DNA of 64,000 nt from a virus (IMGVR_UViG_3300032294_002877:1-64000), one strand, 5' to 3'. Shown: positions 2,530 through 62,662, counted from the stretch's first letter. Notes: generated by a model not told the origin, from the sequence alone. Made by a program: numbers and translations.

Positions 2530-2832
2530 ATGTATAAAACGTTTTTTGGTTTAGCATTAATTTTAATGTGTTGCTGTAGTGCTGCCGCTCAGGATCTTGT
2601 TCCAGTATACACTCAATATCCTGTTGTTTATCAGCAGTATGTTAATGTGGTTTCTTATGAGACCCATGTTGTTCCACGAGTAACAGCTGTTCCGGTATAT
2701 CCTGTTATATCGCCAGTATATGTATCTCCTGCTGTTCCGATATATGCTCCGATGGAATATAGAAGATACTGGTGGGGTTGGCCGAATTGTTTTGTTCCAA
2801 ATTATGCTAGGCCAACTTATATAAGATACTAA
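2530..2832 (+). CDS. Secreted Tyr/Pro/Val-rich small protein
   Basis: GGAG RBS before ATG 2530; signal-peptide-like MYKTFFGLALILMCCCSAAAQD. Confidence 0.7.
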   Translation: MYKTFFGLALILMCCCSAAAQDLVPVYTQYPVVYQQYVNVVSYETHVVPRVTAVPVYPVISPVYVSPAVPIYAPMEYRRYWWGWPNCFVPNYARPTYIRY

Positions 2833-2862
2833 ATTAGCTATAAAATAATAGTCCATATAAAG

Positions 2863-2891
2863 AAGACAGGCAGAAATGCTTGTCTTTTTTT
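2863..2891 (+). terminator. Rho-independent terminator
   Basis: AAGACAGGCA-GAAA-TGCTTGTCTT followed by a T run. Confidence 0.7.
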
Positions 2892-2932
2892 GTAGATATA
2901 GTATGATAGTATACGATACTAGAGGAGATACT

Positions 2933-4759
2933 ATGTGCGGAATTATAGGATACAAAGGTAGTAAAAAATGTTTATCTATCATATTGGACGGACTAAAAAG
3001 ATTAGAGTATCGAGGATACGATAGCGCCGGAGTAGCATGTATCATTCCTCCTAAGCTCATAACTTATAAGAGCGCGGGCTGTGTTAACGAACTAATCTAT
3101 AACTGGATAGATTTTGATTTACCGTCATATATTGGTATTGGTCATACTCGATGGGCTACTCATGGTCAGCCTTCTCAAAGAAATGCTCATCCTCATACTA
3201 CCATAGATGAGAGGGTTAGTATAGTACACAATGGCATTGTGGAAAATTATGCAGCGTTGCAGAAGGAGCTTGTGGATAAGGGATACCTATTCATATCAGA
3301 AACCGATACGGAGGTGTTGCTATATTTAATATACGACTATTTAATTAATAGCGATATTAGTTTATTCGAGGCGGTTAAGCTAGCGCTAGAAAGAGTTGTG
3401 GGCGCTTATGCTATAGCAGTATTGGATAGAAAAAGTCCGGAAACTATGGTTGTGGCCAGAAGAGGTAGTCCTTTGGTTATAGGAGTGGGTGATCCTGGAG
3501 AATATTATGTTTCTAGCGATCCTTTGGGAATAATAAATTATACTAATGATATAGTTTTTGTAGAAGATAATAGTGTTATAGAAATCGCTAATGAGTTAGT
3601 ATGTTATAATACGAGAGATAAAAACGTATCAGAGTGTAATGTATCTAAATTATATAACCAGATATATAATATTGAAAAGGGCGATTATGATCACTTTATG
3701 CTGAAAGAGATATATGAACAGCCTAAGGTTGTGGCTGACTGTTTGAGCGGACGATTGGACGGATATAGAATTAAACTAGGGGGCCTTATAGGTTATGAGA
3801 ACATTTTAAGTAATGCTGATCATATTACCATACTATCTTGCGGATCGTCTTGGCATGCTGCTCTTGTGGCTAAATATTATTTTGAGGAATTCTGTAATAT
3901 AAAAACTTCTGTAGAGTATGCTAGTGAATTTAGATATCGGAAACCTGTTATTAAAGAAGATGATATTATCATAGCCATATCTCAATCGGGCGAAACTGCT
4001 GATACTATAAGCGCTGTGGAATTAGCAAAATCTAAAGCAGCTACTGTTATAGGAGTATGCAATGTTGCTGATTCTTCTTTGGCAAGATTAACAGAGTGTG
4101 GTGTCTATTGTAGAGCCGGAACAGAGATAGGAGTAGCTAGCACCAAAGGTTTCGTGTCTCAGGTTGTGGTGCTGTTATTGATAGCATTATGGATAGAACA
4201 AAACGAAAGCTCTCATATGATAAGCGAATATCGAAAAGCTATTATAGACGATCTGAGAAGTCTTCCCGTAATTTTAGAACAAACGCTAAAACTAAATAAA
4301 AGTATTCGCTCCTTGGCCTCTAAGTTTTATAGGTCTAAGAATTGTCTTTATTTGGGCAGAGAATACAACTTTCCAATAGCTCTAGAGGGGGCTTTGAAAC
4401 TAAAAGAAATTAGCTATATTCATGCTGAAGGATATCCGGCGGCAGAGATGAAACACGGGCCTATTGCTTTGATAGATAAGAATATGCCGGTGGTGGTAAT
4501 ATCAAATAATAAAAAGCAATATGAAAAAATTGTAAATAATATTAAAGAGATACAGGCGAGACAAGGAAAAGTTATAGAGATTTATAGCGAGGATAGATTT
4601 TCGGGGGATTATGGATTACAAGTTCCAATGGTTGTGGATCCCCTAAGCCCAGTAGTGTCAAGTGTGGTATTACAGTTGTTCTCTTATTATTGCGCGGTTC
4701 TTGGCGGACACAATGTGGATAAGCCTAGAAATTTGGCAAAAAGTGTGACCGTGGAGTAG
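2933..4759 (+). CDS. glmS: Glutamine--fructose-6-phosphate aminotransferase
   Basis: N-terminal MCGIIG (catalytic Cys), GHTRWATHG, SQSGETADT and C-terminal NVDKPRNLAKSVTVE; GAGGAG RBS. Confidence 0.97.
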   Translation: MCGIIGYKGSKKCLSIILDGLKRLEYRGYDSAGVACIIPPKLITYKSAGCVNELIYNWIDFDLPSYIGIGHTRWATHGQPSQRNAHPHTTIDERVSIVHNGIVENYAALQKELVDKGYLFISETDTEVLLYLIYDYLINSDISLFEAVKLALERVVGAYAIAVLDRKSPETMVVARRGSPLVIGVGDPGEYYVSSDPLGIINYTNDIVFVEDNSVIEIANELVCYNTRDKNVSECNVSKLYNQIYNIEKGDYDHFMLKEIYEQPKVVADCLSGRLDGYRIKLGGLIGYENILSNADHITILSCGSSWHAALVAKYYFEEFCNIKTSVEYASEFRYRKPVIKEDDIIIAISQSGETADTISAVELAKSKAATVIGVCNVADSSLARLTECGVYCRAGTEIGVASTKGFVSQVVVLLLIALWIEQNESSHMISEYRKAIIDDLRSLPVILEQTLKLNKSIRSLASKFYRSKNCLYLGREYNFPIALEGALKLKEISYIHAEGYPAAEMKHGPIALIDKNMPVVVISNNKKQYEKIVNNIKEIQARQGKVIEIYSEDRFSGDYGLQVPMVVDPLSPVVSSVVLQLFSYYCAVLGGHNVDKPRNLAKSVTVE

Positions 4760-16485: not shown

Positions 16486-16857
16486 ATGATCAAGTTGGAA
16501 CTGAGTGTTCGTGAGGCTATGAATCTGGCGACGAACTGCCACCTCGATATCTATGAGCGGATCGTAAACGCTTTCGAGGTTGCGTTGGGTGTTAACCAGA
16601 ATAAGATGGTGACGATCACCAGAGGTATGACTCTCGACAATCGTATTGGTTGCATCAAGGCCATTCGACTCCATACTGGTTGGGGATTGAAGGAGGCAAA
16701 GGAGTGGACGGATTTTCTGGTGGGTGGCTGGAAGTACGACAAGTGGAATCCTGCTCCTACTGGTAGGACGCAGAGTATCACTCTCAAGACTCCCGAAGCG
16801 GCTGAAAATCTCCTCCGCGATCTTGTTGGTTTGGGTTGCGAAGGCTATCTTTCGTAA
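16486..16857 (+). CDS. Protein with ribosomal bL12 (L7/L12) C-terminal-domain-like motif
   Basis: RIGCIKAIRLHTGWGLKEAKEWTD resembles the bL12 CTD motif KIxVIKxVRxxTGLGLKEAKxLVE. Confidence 0.7.
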   Translation: MIKLELSVREAMNLATNCHLDIYERIVNAFEVALGVNQNKMVTITRGMTLDNRIGCIKAIRLHTGWGLKEAKEWTDFLVGGWKYDKWNPAPTGRTQSITLKTPEAAENLLRDLVGLGCEGYLS

Positions 16858-16859
16858 CC

Positions 16860-16937
16860 TAAAGCCTTGCAACTAAAGAACTTAGAGCGAGGCAGCGGGG
16901 CCGTGTTTGCCATAAGTCCTTATGTCACAACAACTTA
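16860..16937. repeat. Paired 25-bp IHF-like palindrome element, copy 10
   Basis: Halves at 16860-16884 and 16913-16937. Confidence 0.85.
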
Positions 16938-17131
16938 CAGCCAATCAAAAAAATATTCATGTATCGACCTTGACTTGCCGATACTATATGGTAGAATGAT
17001 AGCATCACACGACAAGACGCTAACTGACCACAACACAAAAAAGTTCAGCCTAGCACTTGACAAGTGATGTTGTCTGATGTATGATTACTTTACTTGGTTC
17101 GATTACACTTTTGGAAAGGTTAGGTTTGACT

Positions 17132-17389
17132 ATGCGTACTTATGATTTTGCGGTTGCTGTTGCTTCTGATTCGCTGGATACCGAGGTGGTTGAGGATACG
17201 ATCAAGCAGGCTCTTGCTGACGGTCTGCCCGATGGTACGCTTGTGGTCGTGAAGGCCCAGGGTATCAAGGACTATTCCGAGCAGGGTTGGAAGGTTGCTC
17301 GTAACCGTAAGTTTGGCGTGAGTGCCAAGGAAGCGGGCGATGCCCACAAGGCGAAGTTGACGCGAATTGACGAGGCGACACCCGCCTGA
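17132..17389 (+). CDS. Hypothetical protein
   Basis: AGGT RBS; upstream TTGACA promoter. Confidence 0.65.
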   Translation: MRTYDFAVAVASDSLDTEVVEDTIKQALADGLPDGTLVVVKAQGIKDYSEQGWKVARNRKFGVSAKEAGDAHKAKLTRIDEATPA

Positions 17390-17399
17390 CAATTCAAAC

Positions 17400-17644
17400 T
17401 GGACTATGCCAGTATAAAGAGATTTTAGGCATAGTGCGGCGGGATTCGTCCCGCGTAATGAGAGTTCGTTGCAGACCTAGGTGCAGCCTAGAGAGGGATT
17501 TAACCAATCCTATAAGACGGGTGGTTCCGTCGAAAGTTGTTGCTCTCTAGAGTTTTATTACTAATATAGATGGTACAACAACGCCAGCAAACCGATAGAC
17601 GCTGACGAGCCCCGGCGGTAGCACCGTCCGGGCTATCGGTCTAT
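17400..17644 (+). ncRNA. Candidate multi-hairpin structured RNA directly upstream of the tRNA cluster
   Basis: Helices ACTATGCC/GGCATAGT, GCGGGA/TCCCGC, CTAGAGAG/CTCTCTAG enclosing two hairpins, ACCGATAG/CTATCGGT, and GTTGTTG/CAACAAC (possible pseudoknot). Confidence 0.55.
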
Positions 17645-17716
17645 GGGGCCATAGTTAAATGGATATAACACGGGATTTCTAATCCTGTATTGTAGGTTCG
17701 ATTCCTACTGGCCCTA
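17645..17716 (+). tRNA. tRNA-Arg(TCT)
   Basis: Acceptor GGGGCCA/TGGCCCT; anticodon loop TT-TCT-AA; GGTTCGATTCC T arm. Confidence 0.9.
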
Positions 17717-17723
17717 CTTTTTT

Positions 17724-17797
17724 GGGGGTGTAGATCAATTGGTTAGATCGTTAGCCTGTCACGCTAAAGGTTGCGGGTTCAAGTCCCGTCACCCTCG
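17724..17797 (+). tRNA. tRNA-Asp(GTC)
   Basis: GGGGGTG/CACCCTC; TTAGC-CTGTCAC-GCTAA. Confidence 0.92.
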
Positions 17798-17800
17798 CTA

Positions 17801-17883
17801 GGTGGATTACTCAAGTGGTCAACGAGGGCAGACTGTAAATCTGCTGGCTTTTGCCTTCGGGAGTTCGAATCTCTCATCCACCA
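17801..17883 (+). tRNA. tRNA-Tyr(GTA)
   Basis: GGTGGAT/ATCCACC; GCAGA-CTGTAAA-TCTGC; long variable arm. Confidence 0.92.
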
Positions 17884-17961: not shown

Positions 17962-18043
17962 CATCAAAAATATTTTTTCTACAGTTTTTCTCTTGACCAT
18001 ACCGATACCATAAGGTAGAATCGGTAGACACACGGAGAAAGAT

Positions 18044-46691: not shown

Positions 46692-46765
46692 GGGGCGTTG
46701 CAGCCGGTAGTTGCACATACTCTTATAAGGTATTCAAAAGGTAGGTTCGACTCCTACACGCCCTA
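46692..46765 (+). tRNA. tRNA-Ile(TAT)
   Basis: GGGGCGT/ACGCCCT; ATACT-CTTATAA-GGTAT; GGTTCGACTCC. Confidence 0.85.
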
Positions 46766-46785: not shown

Positions 46786-47139
46786 GGGGGTATAATAGAT
46801 TCGACTACATAATGGAGATTATATTAGCAAGTAGTGGTTGATCGACAGGCCACTATAAAAGTCGATTAAACGCTTTAACTGGCGAAACTCAGTTAGCCCT
46901 TGCTGCTTAATTAAATAACAGCAACAATCTTAGGAAGCGATGAAGGTAGCGTCCAAAAGATTGTCGTAAAATCCTTCGGCTCCTGTTAGTGGTGACGGTT
47001 AACAGGCTAAGATGTGTCACTAGGATTGATGACTGTTGTTCATTCTTTAATCAAATCCGAATGTTTATGAATGAACTAAACTTGTAGAAGATATTTTCAA
47101 ATTTATGCTAGGACACGGGTGCAAATCCCGTTACCTCCA
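46786..47139 (+). ncRNA. ssrA: tmRNA, tag peptide (A)GETQLALAA
   Basis: 5' GGGGGTA...GATTCGAC; tag ORF ggc gaa act cag tta gcc ctt gct gct taa (46881-46910); 3' T arm and TACCTCC-A. Confidence 0.93.
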
Positions 47140-47279
47140 CTTATGAGTTTCTGGAAAAAGGTATTCAAGAAGTATAAGAAAGAAAAGAAACAAGATTTAG
47201 AAAGTCTTGTAGAGGATAAGTATTTTCAAAAATTACAAAAGAAACTGAGCAAACATAACACTAAACATAAAAAGAAAAA

Positions 47280-59971: not shown

Positions 59972-62662
59972 ATGAAGTTGGCAGACAGGACAATTGAGAC
60001 TCACAGTGCTGGTGTTGCTAGTACGAACCAGTTTAGCATTGCTCAAACCAGCAAAATGTTTAAGATTTTGTCGGATTCTTTGTATTCCGATAAGGTTATG
60101 GCGGTCATTCGTGAACTGTCTACTAATGCTTATGACAGTCACGTTAGTGCTGGCAATAAGAATCCTTTTAAGGTAACTCTGCCCACAACGGGCAATCCAA
60201 ATTTCTGCGTAAGAGATTACGGTACTGGTCTTAGTCAGGCAGATATGGAGGAACTGTATACAACATACGGTGCAAGCAATAAGAATGATAGCAATGATTT
60301 TGTAGGTTGCTTGGGTCTTGGCAGCAAGAGTCCGTTTGCCTATACCAAGAGTTTTACTACTGCATCTTATTTTAACGGCAAAAAGTATACCTACATTGCC
60401 GCTATTGATGATAACGGTGTTCCCACTCTGAACCTGTTTAGCACAACAGATACAAATGAGCCTAATGGTCTTGAGATTAGTTTTGCTGTTAAGCAACACG
60501 ATTTTCATGAGTTTAGCAACAAGGCTATGCGTATCTTCCACTATTTTAGAATGAAGCCGATTCTCGAAGGAGGAATCCACAACCACCTGCAAGACCATAA
60601 GTATAGCAATAGCAATATTGTTATTAGTGGAGACGGTTGGAGAGTTTGCAGACTGAATAATGGATATGAATTGTTTCCGAATCATAGTCACAAGATTGAG
60701 AGTGGTATTGTGGCTATCATGGGCAATATCGCTTATCCTGTTCAGTCTAACCAACTTGTTGGTGAAGAGAAACAGGAGCAAACAAACGATGCTATTCAAC
60801 GATGGAATCGTGCTTTCCAAAAAGCCGATATTGATTCGTGGAAAACTTTCGTTAGCGAAATTCTTAATCAAGGCTTGTATCTTGAACTTGAATTTGGCAT
60901 CGGTGAATTGGAGATGGATGTTAGCCGCGAAGGTTTGCAGTATACCAAACAGGTCAAGAGAACTCTGCGTGAAAAGACTCAGGAAATTTTCTTGGAGTTG
61001 AAGAGTACATTTAGTGAGAAAATTGCTGCTGCTAAAACCAAGGTAGAGGCTATCACAACATATTATACTCTTAATGATCTTGCTGGAGGTTGGGGCGTTG
61101 GTGCTTCATGGACAGATTCTAATGGTAAGAGTCATCCTATTAATTCTGGCGAGGACTTGGATTATAAGATTCCTGCCGGTAAGAGTCTGTATGTTTTTAA
61201 TTATAAGAGTGCCGGATACCGATCAAGGCGACTTGTTGCGTTGACCGATAAGATTCATCACGAAACTCTTACGGGTAAGGGTACATACTACTGGAATAAT
61301 ACCAAGAAGTCTGGCGGTATAAAATTCTTCCTGTGCGATGTTAAGGGCGAAGAAAGTGCCAAGAAGATCGTAACACGATTCTGTAATCAGAATGATTGTT
61401 TTGCTTATCTTTTGATGGATACTAAGGATCACACAAAGTGCGACGAGGGTTTTGATAAACTGATTGAGGATGTTGGACAGTCAAATCTACTCAAGGTTTC
61501 AGACTACAAGCATCTTACACAGAGTACCGGACCTCGTAAAACGTACACTCGTAATGCCAAAGGCAGCGTTAGCGACCAAGATGTATTCTATATCTATGGC
61601 GCATCTAAAGATGCCAAGGCAATCAGTAACCAATATAATGATGCTGAGTATCTTAGTATGCTGTCTGAAGATGAACTAGAAGATTTTTTGGAGCAGGATG
61701 AGATAGTGTATGTTCCAATGCTGCGATATGCTAGTGCATCTCTTGAGTACCCGAGCATTAATAGTATTGCTGGTGTGATCAAACAAGAAGCATACAAGGG
61801 ATTAGTCAAGCAACTTTTCGGGTCCAATAAGATTTATGCTATCAAAACTGCGTTCGCTGACAAGTTGAAGAAGGATGGATATAATCTTGTTGATTTTAAT
61901 ACTTTCTTGAAGAATCAACTCAAGAAGATTAATAGTAAAAAGTTTGAGCCTATGGAAACATTTAATTCCGTAGTCAAATACTGCAAGTCTGAATGGGAGA
62001 AGGAAGAAAACCGTAAGAACGGCAGCAATTATTACTATAACAGACTCCCGTCAACAGATAAACAGTTTTTGTTTCACGCTTTAAACCTGTTTGGACTCAA
62101 GTATGCCGATTACATTAAAAACGATAAGTTGGTCAAGGCTCTTGACGATACTATGCTGATTGAGTTCTTTGCCGAGACTGTTCATTGTTCAGTGTTTAAT
62201 ATTCGCAAGTTCTCAGAGTCAGACTACTTTGATCACATGAATAAGATATTCCAGGCTAACGGTATGTCTAGTATTAATAGCAAAGATATTAGAGACACTA
62301 CCGTGGCGTATGGACATCTGATTGGTATCTGTAATAACTTGTATAAAACATCCGATACCGATAATGCTAAGGAGTATATCTCTCTTATCAAGCCATCAAT
62401 TGATACGAAGTATACTCTGCCTAAGATCAGTGAGATTCGTGATAGTATTCGCAATGAACTAGATAAGAATCCTATGCTGAAGTTTATCATATCCACAAAT
62501 CTTAGAGCATCAAGTATTAGGGATCTTGTTGTATCCAATCCTATTAGCCAACTTCATAGTGATGGATATTGGGGGAATAGATCGGAGGATAAATGGTATA
62601 CTGCTATGGATAACAATATGGTCGATTTGTTCAGGGTTCAATTGAGTAGTTTGATCAAGTGA
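59972..62662 (+). CDS. rIIA: rIIA-like protein (N-terminal GHKL/Hsp90-like ATPase)
   Basis: KILSDSLYSDKVMAVIRELSTNAYDSH, VRDYGTGLS and GLGSKSPFAY motifs; immediately followed by an rIIB-like gene. Confidence 0.85.
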   Translation: MKLADRTIETHSAGVASTNQFSIAQTSKMFKILSDSLYSDKVMAVIRELSTNAYDSHVSAGNKNPFKVTLPTTGNPNFCVRDYGTGLSQADMEELYTTYGASNKNDSNDFVGCLGLGSKSPFAYTKSFTTASYFNGKKYTYIAAIDDNGVPTLNLFSTTDTNEPNGLEISFAVKQHDFHEFSNKAMRIFHYFRMKPILEGGIHNHLQDHKYSNSNIVISGDGWRVCRLNNGYELFPNHSHKIESGIVAIMGNIAYPVQSNQLVGEEKQEQTNDAIQRWNRAFQKADIDSWKTFVSEILNQGLYLELEFGIGELEMDVSREGLQYTKQVKRTLREKTQEIFLELKSTFSEKIAAAKTKVEAITTYYTLNDLAGGWGVGASWTDSNGKSHPINSGEDLDYKIPAGKSLYVFNYKSAGYRSRRLVALTDKIHHETLTGKGTYYWNNTKKSGGIKFFLCDVKGEESAKKIVTRFCNQNDCFAYLLMDTKDHTKCDEGFDKLIEDVGQSNLLKVSDYKHLTQSTGPRKTYTRNAKGSVSDQDVFYIYGASKDAKAISNQYNDAEYLSMLSEDELEDFLEQDEIVYVPMLRYASASLEYPSINSIAGVIKQEAYKGLVKQLFGSNKIYAIKTAFADKLKKDGYNLVDFNTFLKNQLKKINSKKFEPMETFNSVVKYCKSEWEKEENRKNGSNYYYNRLPSTDKQFLFHALNLFGLKYADYIKNDKLVKALDDTMLIEFFAETVHCSVFNIRKFSESDYFDHMNKIFQANGMSSINSKDIRDTTVAYGHLIGICNNLYKTSDTDNAKEYISLIKPSIDTKYTLPKISEIRDSIRNELDKNPMLKFIISTNLRASSIRDLVVSNPISQLHSDGYWGNRSEDKWYTAMDNNMVDLFRVQLSSLIK

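What the first reader, a model, noticed from the sequence alone, without database searches (positions are those of the whole stretch)
17400..17644. Dense multi-helix RNA with possible pseudoknot fused to the 5' end of a tRNA cluster
Seen: about 245 nt between a CDS stop and tRNA-Arg are almost entirely paired. Helices are ACTATGCC/GGCATAGT and GCGGGA-TTCG-TCCCGC, then a three-way junction closed by CTAGAGAG/CTCTCTAG that holds GGATT/AATCC and GACGG/CCGTC. The junction strand GTTGTTG is complementary to downstream CAACAAC. A final ACCGATAG/CTATCGGT stem encloses CCCGG/CCGGG and ends at the tRNA 5' end. Established: several phage ncRNAs (GOLLD, theta ribozymes) are tRNA-associated. Inference: a new tRNA-linked structured RNA, possibly a ribozyme or processing element.
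Basis: partly seen in the sequence, partly recalled or inferred. Interest (0 to 1): 0.72.

Follow-up and report, generated by a model that had tools for sequence, protein, structure and literature searches.

The report
Pistol ribozyme plus orphan leader RNA
The 255 bases in front of this phage's tRNA genes hold a known self-cutting RNA (a pistol ribozyme), then an undescribed, tightly knotted RNA fold of about 135 bases that related uncultured phages conserve, then an ordinary leader hairpin. The ribozyme probably cuts the tRNA transcript free from the preceding gene; the job of the new fold is unknown.

Summary
They belong to three separate modules, not one RNA.

1. 17398-17460 is a full-length pistol self-cleaving ribozyme (Rfam RF02679, 52.5 bits against a cut-off of 34.5). 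The predicted cut is G17455/U17456.

2. 17456-17594 ("X") matches no Rfam family. Across 57 distinct homologues 91.7% of pairs hold, against 21-49% in slid controls, and 20 of 32 pairs show compensatory changes. X was found only in one clade of uncultured freshwater phages, always between a pistol and tRNA-Arg(UCU).

3. 17591-17640 is a variant of a leader hairpin that pistol-less relatives also carry before tRNA-Arg.

Most likely the pistol detaches the small-ORF mRNA from the tRNA precursor. RNase P would then release X plus the hairpin as a 189-nt RNA of unknown function.

This scan has noted pistols at the head of phage tRNA operons before, on other DNA. X itself has not been seen before.

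The parts
17057..17085 (+). Promoter-like site TTGACA-17-TATGAT. A second, TTGACT-16-TAGAAT, lies at 16970-16997. These are the only promoter-like sites upstream of the unit.
   Evidence: 11/12 and 10/12 matches. No promoter-like or terminator-like site lies between the ORF and the tRNAs.
17132..17389 (+). Small ORF of 85 aa starting MRTYDF. The longest frame starts at 17081. It has no Pfam family and its stop is TGA at 17387-89.
   Evidence: Most homologues align only from residue 13-18 of the long frame, and GGAAAGG precedes ATG 17132.
17398..17460 (+). Pistol self-cleaving ribozyme. P1 is 17398-401/17410-13. The pseudoknot is 17403-08 x 17430-35. The linker AUAAAGA is 17414-20. P2 is 17422-24/17457-59. 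G17429-C17437 closes the pseudoknot strand. P3 is 17439-44/17449-54 with a UUCG loop. The predicted scissile bond is G17455/U17456.
   Evidence: Rfam RF02679, 52.5 bits (cut-off 34.5), model positions 1-68 of 68. Relatives score 53.7-57.6 bits. Compensated changes occur in the pseudoknot (ACUAUGC/GCAUAGU to ACUGUGC/GCACAGU) and in P2 (AUU/AAU to CAU/AUG).
17464..17487 (+). X, 5' domain. Hairpin H1 is 17468-73/17482-87. Its loop (17474-77) can pair with the 5' segment 17464-67 to give H-type pseudoknot PK1. In the window PK1 is weak: 3 of 4 pairs.
   Evidence: H1 has 4 of 6 pairs with compensatory change. PK1 variants GGUU/GACC, GGCC/GGCC, AGUC/GACU and UGGCU/GGCCA occur in relatives. Short-H1 relatives have a plain hairpin here.
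17488..17550 (+). X, three-way junction. Closing stem S1 is 17488-95/17543-50. H2 is 17496-99/17507-10. The J2/3 strand UAUAA is 17511-15. H3 is 17516-20/17527-31. The loop-loop kiss is L2 17502-06 (AACCA) x L3 17522-26 (UGGUU). A conserved GAA lies at 17532-34.
   Evidence: S1 is 99% paired with 5 of 7 pairs compensatory. H3 is 96% paired with 5 of 5 compensatory. The kiss is 98% paired with two different pairs compensated (AGCCA/UGGCU, AAUCA/UGAUU). H3 is also recovered by RNAalifold on an unfitted alignment.
17536..17588 (+). X, pseudoknot PK2 and hairpin H4. The junction strand 17536-42 (GUUGUUG) pairs with the H4 loop 17576-82 (CAACAAC). H4 is 17569-74/17583-88, with an A-G mismatch at 17570/17587 in the window. 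An AU-rich variable linker lies at 17551-68 and a conserved tail CAAACCG at 17588-94.
   Evidence: PK2 has 25 distinct strand combinations in 57 sequences, all giving 5-8 bp. Cognate duplexes average -8.1 kcal/mol against -3.1 for non-cognate, and 0 of 2000 permutations do as well. H4 is 98% paired and is recovered by RNAalifold.
17591..17640 (+). Leader hairpin Y1. The lower stem ACCGAUAG/CUAUCGGU encloses a small branched top that includes CCCGG/CCGGG. It is followed by CUAU and then the tRNA. No U run follows it here.
   Evidence: Pistol-less relatives carry the same lower stem CCGATAG/CTATCGG followed by T4-5 before tRNA-Arg (L001, L006, L008, L010, L087, L088). Only L048 shares the window's top. 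No terminator-like site is called in the window.
17645..17883 (+). tRNA-Arg(UCU) 17645-17717, tRNA-Asp(GUC) 17724-17798 and tRNA-Tyr(GUA) 17801-17883.
   Evidence: ARAGORN. Rfam tRNA scores of 68.8, 70.2 and 54.1 bits.

Best explanation
The stretch is a modular leader made of three independent parts.

1. A pistol ribozyme (17398-17460) folds on transcripts that start at the promoters upstream of the small ORF. It cuts itself between G17455 and U17456. The ORF mRNA is left with a structured end carrying a 2',3'-cyclic phosphate, and everything downstream starts with a 5'-OH. In this phage there is no promoter between the ORF and the tRNAs, so this cut is what separates message from tRNA precursor.

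2. The new 5' end leads straight into X (17456-17594). X is a compact RNA built from a hairpin/pseudoknot, a three-way junction whose two arms kiss through 5 Watson-Crick pairs, and a second hairpin whose loop pairs back to the junction.

3. The leader hairpin Y1 follows X. RNase P cleavage at the tRNA-Arg 5' end would then release X plus Y1 as a discrete RNA of 189 nt (17456-17644).

What is shown: pistol membership by sequence and structure, the fold of X by covariation, the modularity, and the fixed pistol-X-hairpin-tRNA-Arg order.

What is inferred: that cleavage happens, that the RNA is released and stable, and what X does. My best guess is that X is a stand-alone structured non-coding RNA that binds a protein or another partner. 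The pistol would act as an insulator that gives X a clean 5' end whatever is transcribed upstream.
For: Pistol:
- It matches the full Rfam model at 52.5 bits with every conserved core position.
- Relatives score 53.7-57.6 bits.
- Compensated changes occur in the pseudoknot and in P2.

X is a real RNA structure:
- 91.7% of 1774 cells are paired, against 21-49% when partners are slid.
- 20 of 32 pairs have double changes, and 0 of 500 shuffles reach the observed score (29-sequence version).
- PK2 has 25 complementary variants.
- G-U pairs occur on the + strand only.
- There is no ORF.

Modularity:
- Of 64 distinct tRNA-Arg upstream regions, 46 have no pistol or X, 17 have both and 1 has the pistol alone.
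- In L043/L239 the pistol abuts tRNA-Arg with a 6-nt product leader.
- In L262 a pistol precedes an ORF.

Fixed context of X:
- All 40 complete metagenome hits have a pistol upstream and a tRNA 39-64 nt downstream, which ARAGORN calls Arg(UCU) in 39.
- There is one copy per genome.

The window has no promoter or terminator between the ORF and the tRNAs.

Many relatives have a TGnTATAAT-like box between the hairpin and tRNA-Arg. There X is not needed to express the tRNA, which favours an RNA with its own function.

The literature already proposes ribozyme processing of polycistronic transcripts (PMC6765202).
Against: - No RNA data could be obtained. Cleavage, RNA ends and stability are therefore all untested.
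- P2 of this pistol is only 3 A-U pairs plus a G-G mismatch.
- X is known only from one clade and one locus, so its 57 sequences are related. The shuffle control overstates significance for related sequences, although the slid controls and the many independent PK2 variants do not share that weakness.
- RNAalifold on the unfitted MAFFT alignment recovers only H3 and H4. Single-sequence MFE finds S1, H3 and H4 in about 60% of sequences and almost never H2.
- Nothing points to a specific partner or function for X.
- In the window PK1 and H4 each carry a mismatch.
Confidence: 0.6

Rival explanations
1. X is a cis-acting regulatory leader, either a riboswitch-like sensor or a put/EAR-like RNA that modifies RNA polymerase. 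It would control read-through of the following hairpin into the tRNA genes.
For: X always lies between a transcription start or cleavage site and a hairpin that carries a U run in pistol-less relatives. Its conserved tail CAAACCG runs into the 5' strand of that hairpin. It has conserved unpaired junction bases (AUAA, GAA), as ligand pockets do.
Against: In the window, and in most X-bearing relatives, the hairpin has no U run, so there is no terminator to regulate. Many relatives carry an extra TGnTATAAT-like box right before tRNA-Arg, which would bypass any such control. I found no conserved alternative pairing between X and the hairpin.
Confidence: 0.15
2. X is only a protective or insulating fold. 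It would give the 5'-OH end made by the pistol a compact cap that blocks 5'-end-dependent RNases, or keep the ribozyme and tRNA from misfolding with each other. It would have no function of its own.
For: A hairpin or H-type pseudoknot starts 5-12 nt after the cut in every homologue. The synthetic RiboJ insulator uses the same logic of a ribozyme followed by a hairpin (own knowledge).
Against: A plain hairpin would be enough for this. The most conserved part of X is the distal junction, kiss and PK2, not the 5' end, which is the most variable part. L043 works with the pistol directly on the tRNA. tRNA leaders are removed by RNase P anyway.
Confidence: 0.15
3. X is a second catalytic or allosteric RNA. 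It would be either a new self-cleaving class, as other ribozymes often sit near known ones, or a sensor domain that tunes the weak P2 of the pistol.
For: Twister-sister, hatchet and pistol were themselves found as conserved structures near known ribozymes (PMC6765202). X has multiple pseudoknots and invariant junction bases. PK1 starts directly after the 3' strand of P2, and P2 is only 3 bp.
Against: No match to any ribozyme family at E<=10 in three variants. The hammerhead-like CUGACGAG box at 17602-09 lacks the required GAAA and third stem. Most structured RNAs found next to ribozymes did not cleave when tested (PMC6765202). The pistol occurs and is conserved without X (L043, and the first copy in L262).
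Confidence: 0.08
4. The pairing is chance or a DNA-level feature, such as a protein-binding site or recombination remnant, and not an RNA.
For: The cassette is bounded by double-palindrome elements at 16860 and 17884 that other notes of this scan link to cassette swapping. Presence of the pistol-X module is patchy among close relatives.
Against: Compensatory changes that keep the pairing appear in 20 of 32 pairs, and there are 25 PK2 variants. G-U pairs are tolerated on this strand only. The Rfam pistol match is strand-specific.
Confidence: 0.02

Closest known systems
Pistol self-cleaving ribozyme (Rfam RF02679; Weinberg 2015, Harris 2015; structures 5K7C and 5KTJ as reviewed in PMC6154101)
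   Same: 17398-17460 has P1, the 6-bp pseudoknot between the P1 loop and the P2/P3 junction, P2, P3, the conserved AUAAA linker, the G-C pair and GCG core, and a G-U step between P3 and P2.
   Different: The host group is uncultured freshwater phages rather than Firmicutes and their phages. It sits at an mRNA/tRNA boundary. P2 is very short. Some relatives carry a 26-45 nt insertion after the linker.
Orphan structured RNAs found next to bacterial self-cleaving ribozymes (Weinberg 2015 and 2017, as summarised in PMC6765202)
   Same: X is a conserved, covarying RNA structure next to a ribozyme, with no known function.
   Different: X matches none of the Rfam families that hold those motifs. It is physically fused to the ribozyme's 3' product.
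Theta (minimal HDV-like) ribozymes next to phage tRNAs (PMC10879173)
   Same: A small self-cleaving ribozyme placed against phage tRNA genes and proposed to help process them.
   Different: Theta ribozymes lie 3' of the tRNA and cut at their own 5' end, so they process the trailer. Here a pistol lies 5' of the tRNA and cuts near its own 3' end. The fold is different and there is no HDV-like match.
Phage T4 stable RNAs rnaC and rnaD (species 1 and 2), encoded beside tRNA-Arg in the tRNA cluster
   Same: Small stable RNAs of unknown function, co-transcribed with phage tRNAs and lying directly beside tRNA-Arg.
   Different: In T4 they lie 3' of tRNA-Arg, and rnaC folds with a tRNA-like T arm. Model R1 of X gives no match to either (best 5.4 bits). 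This is an analogy of context only.
Three-way-junction RNAs with kissing arms, such as the purine riboswitch aptamer, and two-domain pseudoknotted aptamers such as ZTP (own knowledge)
   Same: Two arms of a three-way junction are held side by side by loop-loop pairs. A second sub-domain is tied on by a pseudoknot across a variable linker.
   Different: No sequence or model match. The kiss is a 5-bp Watson-Crick helix. The junction strand lengths and conserved bases differ. No expression platform could be identified.

Membership tests
Pistol ribozyme (RF02679) | Hairpin P1 whose loop forms a 6-bp pseudoknot with the strand joining P2 and P3 | tested here: met
   P1 is 17398-401/17410-13. Loop 17403-08 pairs with 17430-35. 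The pairing is compensated in relatives: ACUGUGC/GCACAGU.
Pistol ribozyme (RF02679) | Stems P2 and P3 in the consensus order | tested here: met
   P3 has 6 bp with a UUCG loop. P2 has only 3 A-U pairs plus a G-G mismatch. P2 covaries in relatives: CAU/AUG in L098.
Pistol ribozyme (RF02679) | Conserved core bases: the AUAAA linker, purine-32, the G33-C41 pair, G40 and G42 (PMC6154101) | tested here: met
   All are aligned to consensus positions at posterior probability '*'. They correspond to G17428, G17429-C17437, G17436 and G17438. The score is 52.5 bits against a cut-off of 34.5.
Pistol ribozyme (RF02679) | G-U scissile step in the two-base junction between P3 and P2 | tested here: met
   G17455-U17456 aligns to the model's GU.
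Pistol ribozyme (RF02679) | Mg2+-dependent self-cleavage giving a 2',3'-cyclic phosphate and a 5'-OH | not testable with these tools
Any Rfam 15 family, for X (17461-17594) | Covariance-model match, even a weak one (E<=10) | tested here: not met
   Nothing on the + strand for the window, L069 or L037 variants. The few matches overlapping X or the hairpin are weak minus-strand ones at E 2.7-7.1.
Hammerhead ribozyme, considered for 17591-17644 because of CUGACGAG and GUC | CUGANGA, stem II, GAAA, stem III, UH, in that order around three stems | tested here: not met
   No GAAA and no third stem follow the CCCGG/CCGGG hairpin. No Rfam hammerhead match.
tRNA or tRNA-like gene, for X | Cloverleaf detectable by ARAGORN or the Rfam tRNA model | tested here: not met
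   No call between 17390 and 17644.
HDV-like / theta ribozyme | Nested double pseudoknot cutting at its own 5' end, placed 3' of a tRNA | tested here: not met
   No Rfam match. The order of paired strands in X differs, and X lies 5' of the tRNA.
Intrinsic terminator, for hairpin Y1 | G+C-rich hairpin followed directly by a U run | tested here: not met
   The window has CUAU after the stem and no site is called. Relatives without the pistol have T4-5 there, but L001 is not called either.
T4 rnaC / rnaD stable RNAs | Sequence or structure similarity to the T4 RNAs | tested here: not met
   R1 scores 5.4 bits or less over the T4 region with filters off.

The most novel reading that the evidence does not exclude
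X is the founding member of a new functional RNA class that works together with the pistol. It could be a ligand- or protein-sensing domain that gates ribozyme cleavage or tRNA-operon output (a natural allosteric pistol). It could also be a new small ribozyme. Either way it is excised at both ends purely by RNA catalysts: the pistol at the 5' end and RNase P at the 3' end.
Probability: 0.12. Interest if true: 0.85.

Novelty: new variant of a known kind. Interest (0 to 1): 0.55.

Why it matters
The natural role of pistol ribozymes is still open (PMC6765202). This locus gives an unusually readable case. The ribozyme sits exactly at the boundary between a message and a tRNA precursor, and related phages show the same boundary with the ribozyme, without it, or with it pressed directly against the tRNA. 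That makes "ribozyme as transcript separator or insulator" directly testable.

The locus also yields a new RNA fold of about 135 nt with three long-range pairings and strong covariation. RNAs this intricate usually bind something or catalyse something, so X is a reasonable candidate for structural and biochemical study. Its narrow distribution limits the reach of the finding: one clade of uncultured phages and one locus.

Tried and rejected
- One single new RNA: rejected. The three parts occur independently in relatives.
- Hammerhead in the last stem (CUGACGAG, GUC): rejected. There is no GAAA and no stem III.
- tRNA-like fold, or homology to T4 rnaC/rnaD: rejected.
- Known Rfam family for X: none in three variants.
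- Cultured-phage relatives: blastn against 50,697 phage records matches only the tRNAs. The downstream protein finds only Thermus phage phiFa at 26% identity.
- X in prokaryote genomes: a strict pattern gave 16 hits in 185,579 species genomes, and none scored with the model.
- A second X copy in the window: 60706-60830 scores 18.7 bits, E = 0.16, which I take as chance.
- RNAalifold on the raw MAFFT alignment recovered only H3 and H4, because the other helices are misaligned there.
- A small peptide in X: the AUG in H4 opens frames of 4 to over 20 codons that are not conserved (read).
- A conserved switch between X and the hairpin: none found by eye.
- Literature: three searches found no paper describing a pistol at a tRNA 5' leader or a motif like X.

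Full report
**What is there**

The window comes from a 180,460-bp IMG/VR virus record that CheckV rates complete. A small ORF ends at 17389 and tRNA-Arg(UCU) starts at 17645. Between them lie 255 nt with no ORF of 40 aa or more on either strand. The stretch folds far better than dinucleotide shuffles: z = -4.2, with 0 of 200 shuffles as good.

**Module 1: a pistol ribozyme**

Rfam at gathering thresholds calls 17398-17460 a pistol ribozyme (RF02679) at 52.5 bits against a cut-off of 34.5. The match covers model positions 1-68. In the alignment:
- P1 is 17398-401/17410-13.
- The P1 loop 17403-08 pairs with 17430-35.
- The conserved AUAAA linker follows P1.
- G17429-C17437 and the GCG core occupy the positions that reviews give as G33-C41, G40 and G42 (PMC6154101).
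- GCGGGA-UUCG-UCCCGC is P3.
- G17455-U17456 is the G-U scissile step.
- P2 is only A22-U59, U23-A58 and U24-A57, plus a G-G mismatch.

Relatives score 53.7-57.6 bits. They show compensated changes in the pseudoknot (ACUGUGC/GCACAGU) and in P2 (CAU/AUG).

**Relatives show the stretch is modular**

The two flanking proteins retrieved 121 loci from IMG/VR, from contigs of up to 238 kb. Cultured phages share only the tRNAs. Among 64 distinct regions upstream of tRNA-Arg(UCU):
- 46 have no pistol,
- 17 have the pistol plus the middle module X,
- one (L043/L239) has the pistol pressed directly against the tRNA, leaving a 6-nt leader after the cut.

Pistol-less relatives have a promoter-like site whose -35 box overlaps the ORF stop codon (TTGCCT-17-TATAAT in L001). 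After it comes a hairpin and then the tRNA. One hairpin type, CCGATAG...CTATCGG followed by T4-5, has the same lower stem as the window's last helix, ACCGATAG/CTATCGGT. The window and L048 share a variant top and lack the U run. In L262 one pistol precedes a 45-codon ORF and a second precedes X. The pistol therefore acts as a portable cutting module.

**Module 2: X, an undescribed structured RNA**

X runs from 17456 to about 17594.

*How the homologues were collected.* I built covariance model R1 from 18 homologues. I then collected more with an exact pistol pattern in IMG/VR (36 stretches) and a strict X pattern in metagenomes (75 stretches, 41 real). That gave 57 distinct sequences aligned to the model.

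*Pair counts.* On this alignment 91.7% of 1774 cells are standard pairs, against 21-49% when the 3' partners are slid by 1-3 columns. Twenty of 32 pairs show changes on both sides, and 0 of 500 shuffles reach the observed covariation (for the 29-sequence set).

*Elements, in window coordinates.*
- H1: 17468-73/17482-87.
- Closing stem S1: 17488-95/17543-50 (99% paired).
- H2: 17496-99/17507-10.
- H3: 17516-20/17527-31 (all five pairs compensated).
- H4: 17569-74/17583-88.

*Long-range pairings.*
- The H2 loop AACCA (17502-06) pairs with the H3 loop UGGUU (17522-26). Two different pairs of this kiss are compensated in relatives: AGCCA/UGGCU and AAUCA/UGAUU.
The 57 sequences hold 25 distinct strand combinations, all giving 5-8 bp. 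Cognate duplexes average -8.1 kcal/mol and non-cognate ones -3.1. None of 2000 partner permutations does as well.
- In variants with a long H1, the segment just after the pistol pairs with the H1 loop to form an H-type pseudoknot: GGUU/GACC, GGCC/GGCC, AGUC/GACU. The window's version has a mismatch.

*Conserved unpaired bases.* These are AUAA between H2 and H3, GAA after H3, and a CAAACCG tail.

*Caveats.*
- The alignment was fitted to my structure.
- RNAalifold on the unfitted MAFFT alignment recovers only H3 and H4.
- Single-sequence MFE recovers S1, H3 and H4 in about 60% of sequences and H2 almost never.
- All sequences come from one clade.

The slid controls, the per-sequence pseudoknot test and the G-U pairs on this strand only still leave little room for doubt that X is an RNA structure.

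**X matches nothing known and has one context**

Permissive Rfam searches (E<=10) of three variants give no + strand family for X. It is not a tRNA. It is not a hammerhead, because the CUGACGAG box in the last hairpin has no GAAA or third stem. It is not related to the T4 stable RNAs beside tRNA-Arg.

All 40 complete metagenome hits have a pistol directly upstream and a tRNA 39-64 nt downstream; ARAGORN calls it Arg(UCU) in 39 and Lys(UUU) in one. The genome has one pistol and one X. A pattern scan of 185,579 prokaryote genomes found no X. These searches used patterns taken from this clade, so distant relatives could have been missed.

**How it most likely works**

In the window the only promoter-like sites lie upstream of the small ORF, at 16970-97 and 17057-85. 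The next one is at 17993, and no terminator-like site lies between them. tRNA-Arg, tRNA-Asp and tRNA-Tyr must therefore be co-transcribed with the ORF.

The pistol would cut at 17455/17456. That frees the message and leaves X at the 5'-OH end of the tRNA precursor. RNase P would then release X plus Y1 as a 189-nt RNA.

Many X-bearing relatives have a TGnTATAAT-like box between the hairpin and the tRNA. There the tRNA does not depend on X, which argues that X has a function of its own rather than regulating the tRNA.

My estimates are:
- a stand-alone structured RNA with the pistol as its insulator: about 0.6;
- a cis-regulatory leader: about 0.15;
- a purely protective or insulating fold: about 0.15;
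- a second ribozyme or an allosteric partner of the pistol: about 0.08.

**A detail in relatives**

A perfect TTGACA lies 16-17 nt upstream of the pistol linker TATAAA in 24 of 53 distinct pistol loci, and a 5/6 or better match in 36. If this is a promoter, P1 lies in its spacer and the linker is its -10 box. Transcripts from it would then start inside the ribozyme and lack P1. Only read-through transcripts would self-cleave.

The consensus scan does not call this site, because the -10 box lacks the final T. The window has lost the -35 box (2/6 match). From my own knowledge, TATAAATA is also the T4 late-promoter consensus. This remains a lead and not a finding.

**Comparison and novelty**

The pistol is a new member of a known class, in a setting no paper I could find describes. 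Theta ribozymes process tRNA trailers, not leaders (PMC10879173). Earlier notes of this scan record pistols at the head of phage tRNA operons, and pairs of pistols bracketing mini-genes, in other genomes. I treat those notes as unverified leads. None shares sequence with X.

X is an orphan structured RNA of the kind known to accompany bacterial ribozymes (PMC6765202), but it belongs to no described family. Overall this is a new variant of a known kind. It is of moderate interest: a clean natural test case for pistol function, plus a well-supported new fold of unknown role and narrow distribution.

Noticed in passing
relatives, e.g. L038:2470-2520, L249, L251, L264 (window 17386-17418 for comparison): A perfect TTGACA lies 16-17 nt upstream of the pistol linker TATAAA in 24 of 53 distinct pistol loci, and a 5/6 or better match in 36. 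If this is a promoter, P1 lies in its spacer and transcripts from it would lack P1. The window has lost the -35 box. The consensus scan does not call the site because the -10 box lacks the final T.
   Followed up: partly
L262 (minus strand), about 2560-3040: Two pistol ribozymes 219 nt apart bracket a 45-codon ORF that has its own ribosome-binding site. The second pistol is followed by X. The excised piece would carry a 5'-OH and a 2',3'-cyclic phosphate.
   Followed up: partly
L043:2616-2680 (same contig as L239): A pistol with no X and no hairpin ends 1 nt before tRNA-Arg. The cut would leave a 6-nt leader (UAAUGA) on the tRNA.
   Followed up: partly
L014:2397-2481, L026:2381-2480, L053:2414-2498: Pistols with an extra 26-45 nt after the AUAAA linker. 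The insert forms one or two small hairpins, GGGC-UAAC-GCCC and CACC...GGUG. I did not test whether these pistols still score with Rfam or still fold.
   Followed up: no
L293:4353-4497: The H1 loop of this X carries a 23-nt insertion. It forms a hairpin (CCCGC...GCGGG) that resembles the 3' end of the pistol P3.
   Followed up: no
window 46786-47142 (+): A full-length tmRNA (Rfam RF00023, 101.5 bits) lies 20 nt after tRNA-Ile(UAU) at 46692-46765 in this phage genome. ARAGORN did not report it.
   Followed up: no
window 17081-17389: The small ORF probably starts at ATG 17132 (MRTYDF...), which is preceded by GGAAAGG, and not at the first ATG at 17081. The -10 box of the promoter-like site at 17057-85 overlaps 17081.
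   Followed up: partly
window 16486-16854 (+): A 123-aa protein gives a weak match, below the cut-off, to the ribosomal L7/L12 C-terminal domain (E = 1.2e-4, 22.7 bits against 25.9).
   Followed up: no
window 60706-60830 (+): A weak match to the X model (18.7 bits, E = 0.16). It is probably chance and I did not examine it.
   Followed up: no
relatives, e.g. L011, L003, L007 (the 50 nt before tRNA-Arg): A second hairpin type (Y2) replaces Y1 in most X-bearing loci. It is a 15-16 bp irregular hairpin, GCCNCCACGG-GACG-CCGUGGGGGC, extended by CUGCGA/UUGCGG. It has no U run, and its length suggests an RNase III-type site rather than a terminator.
   Followed up: no
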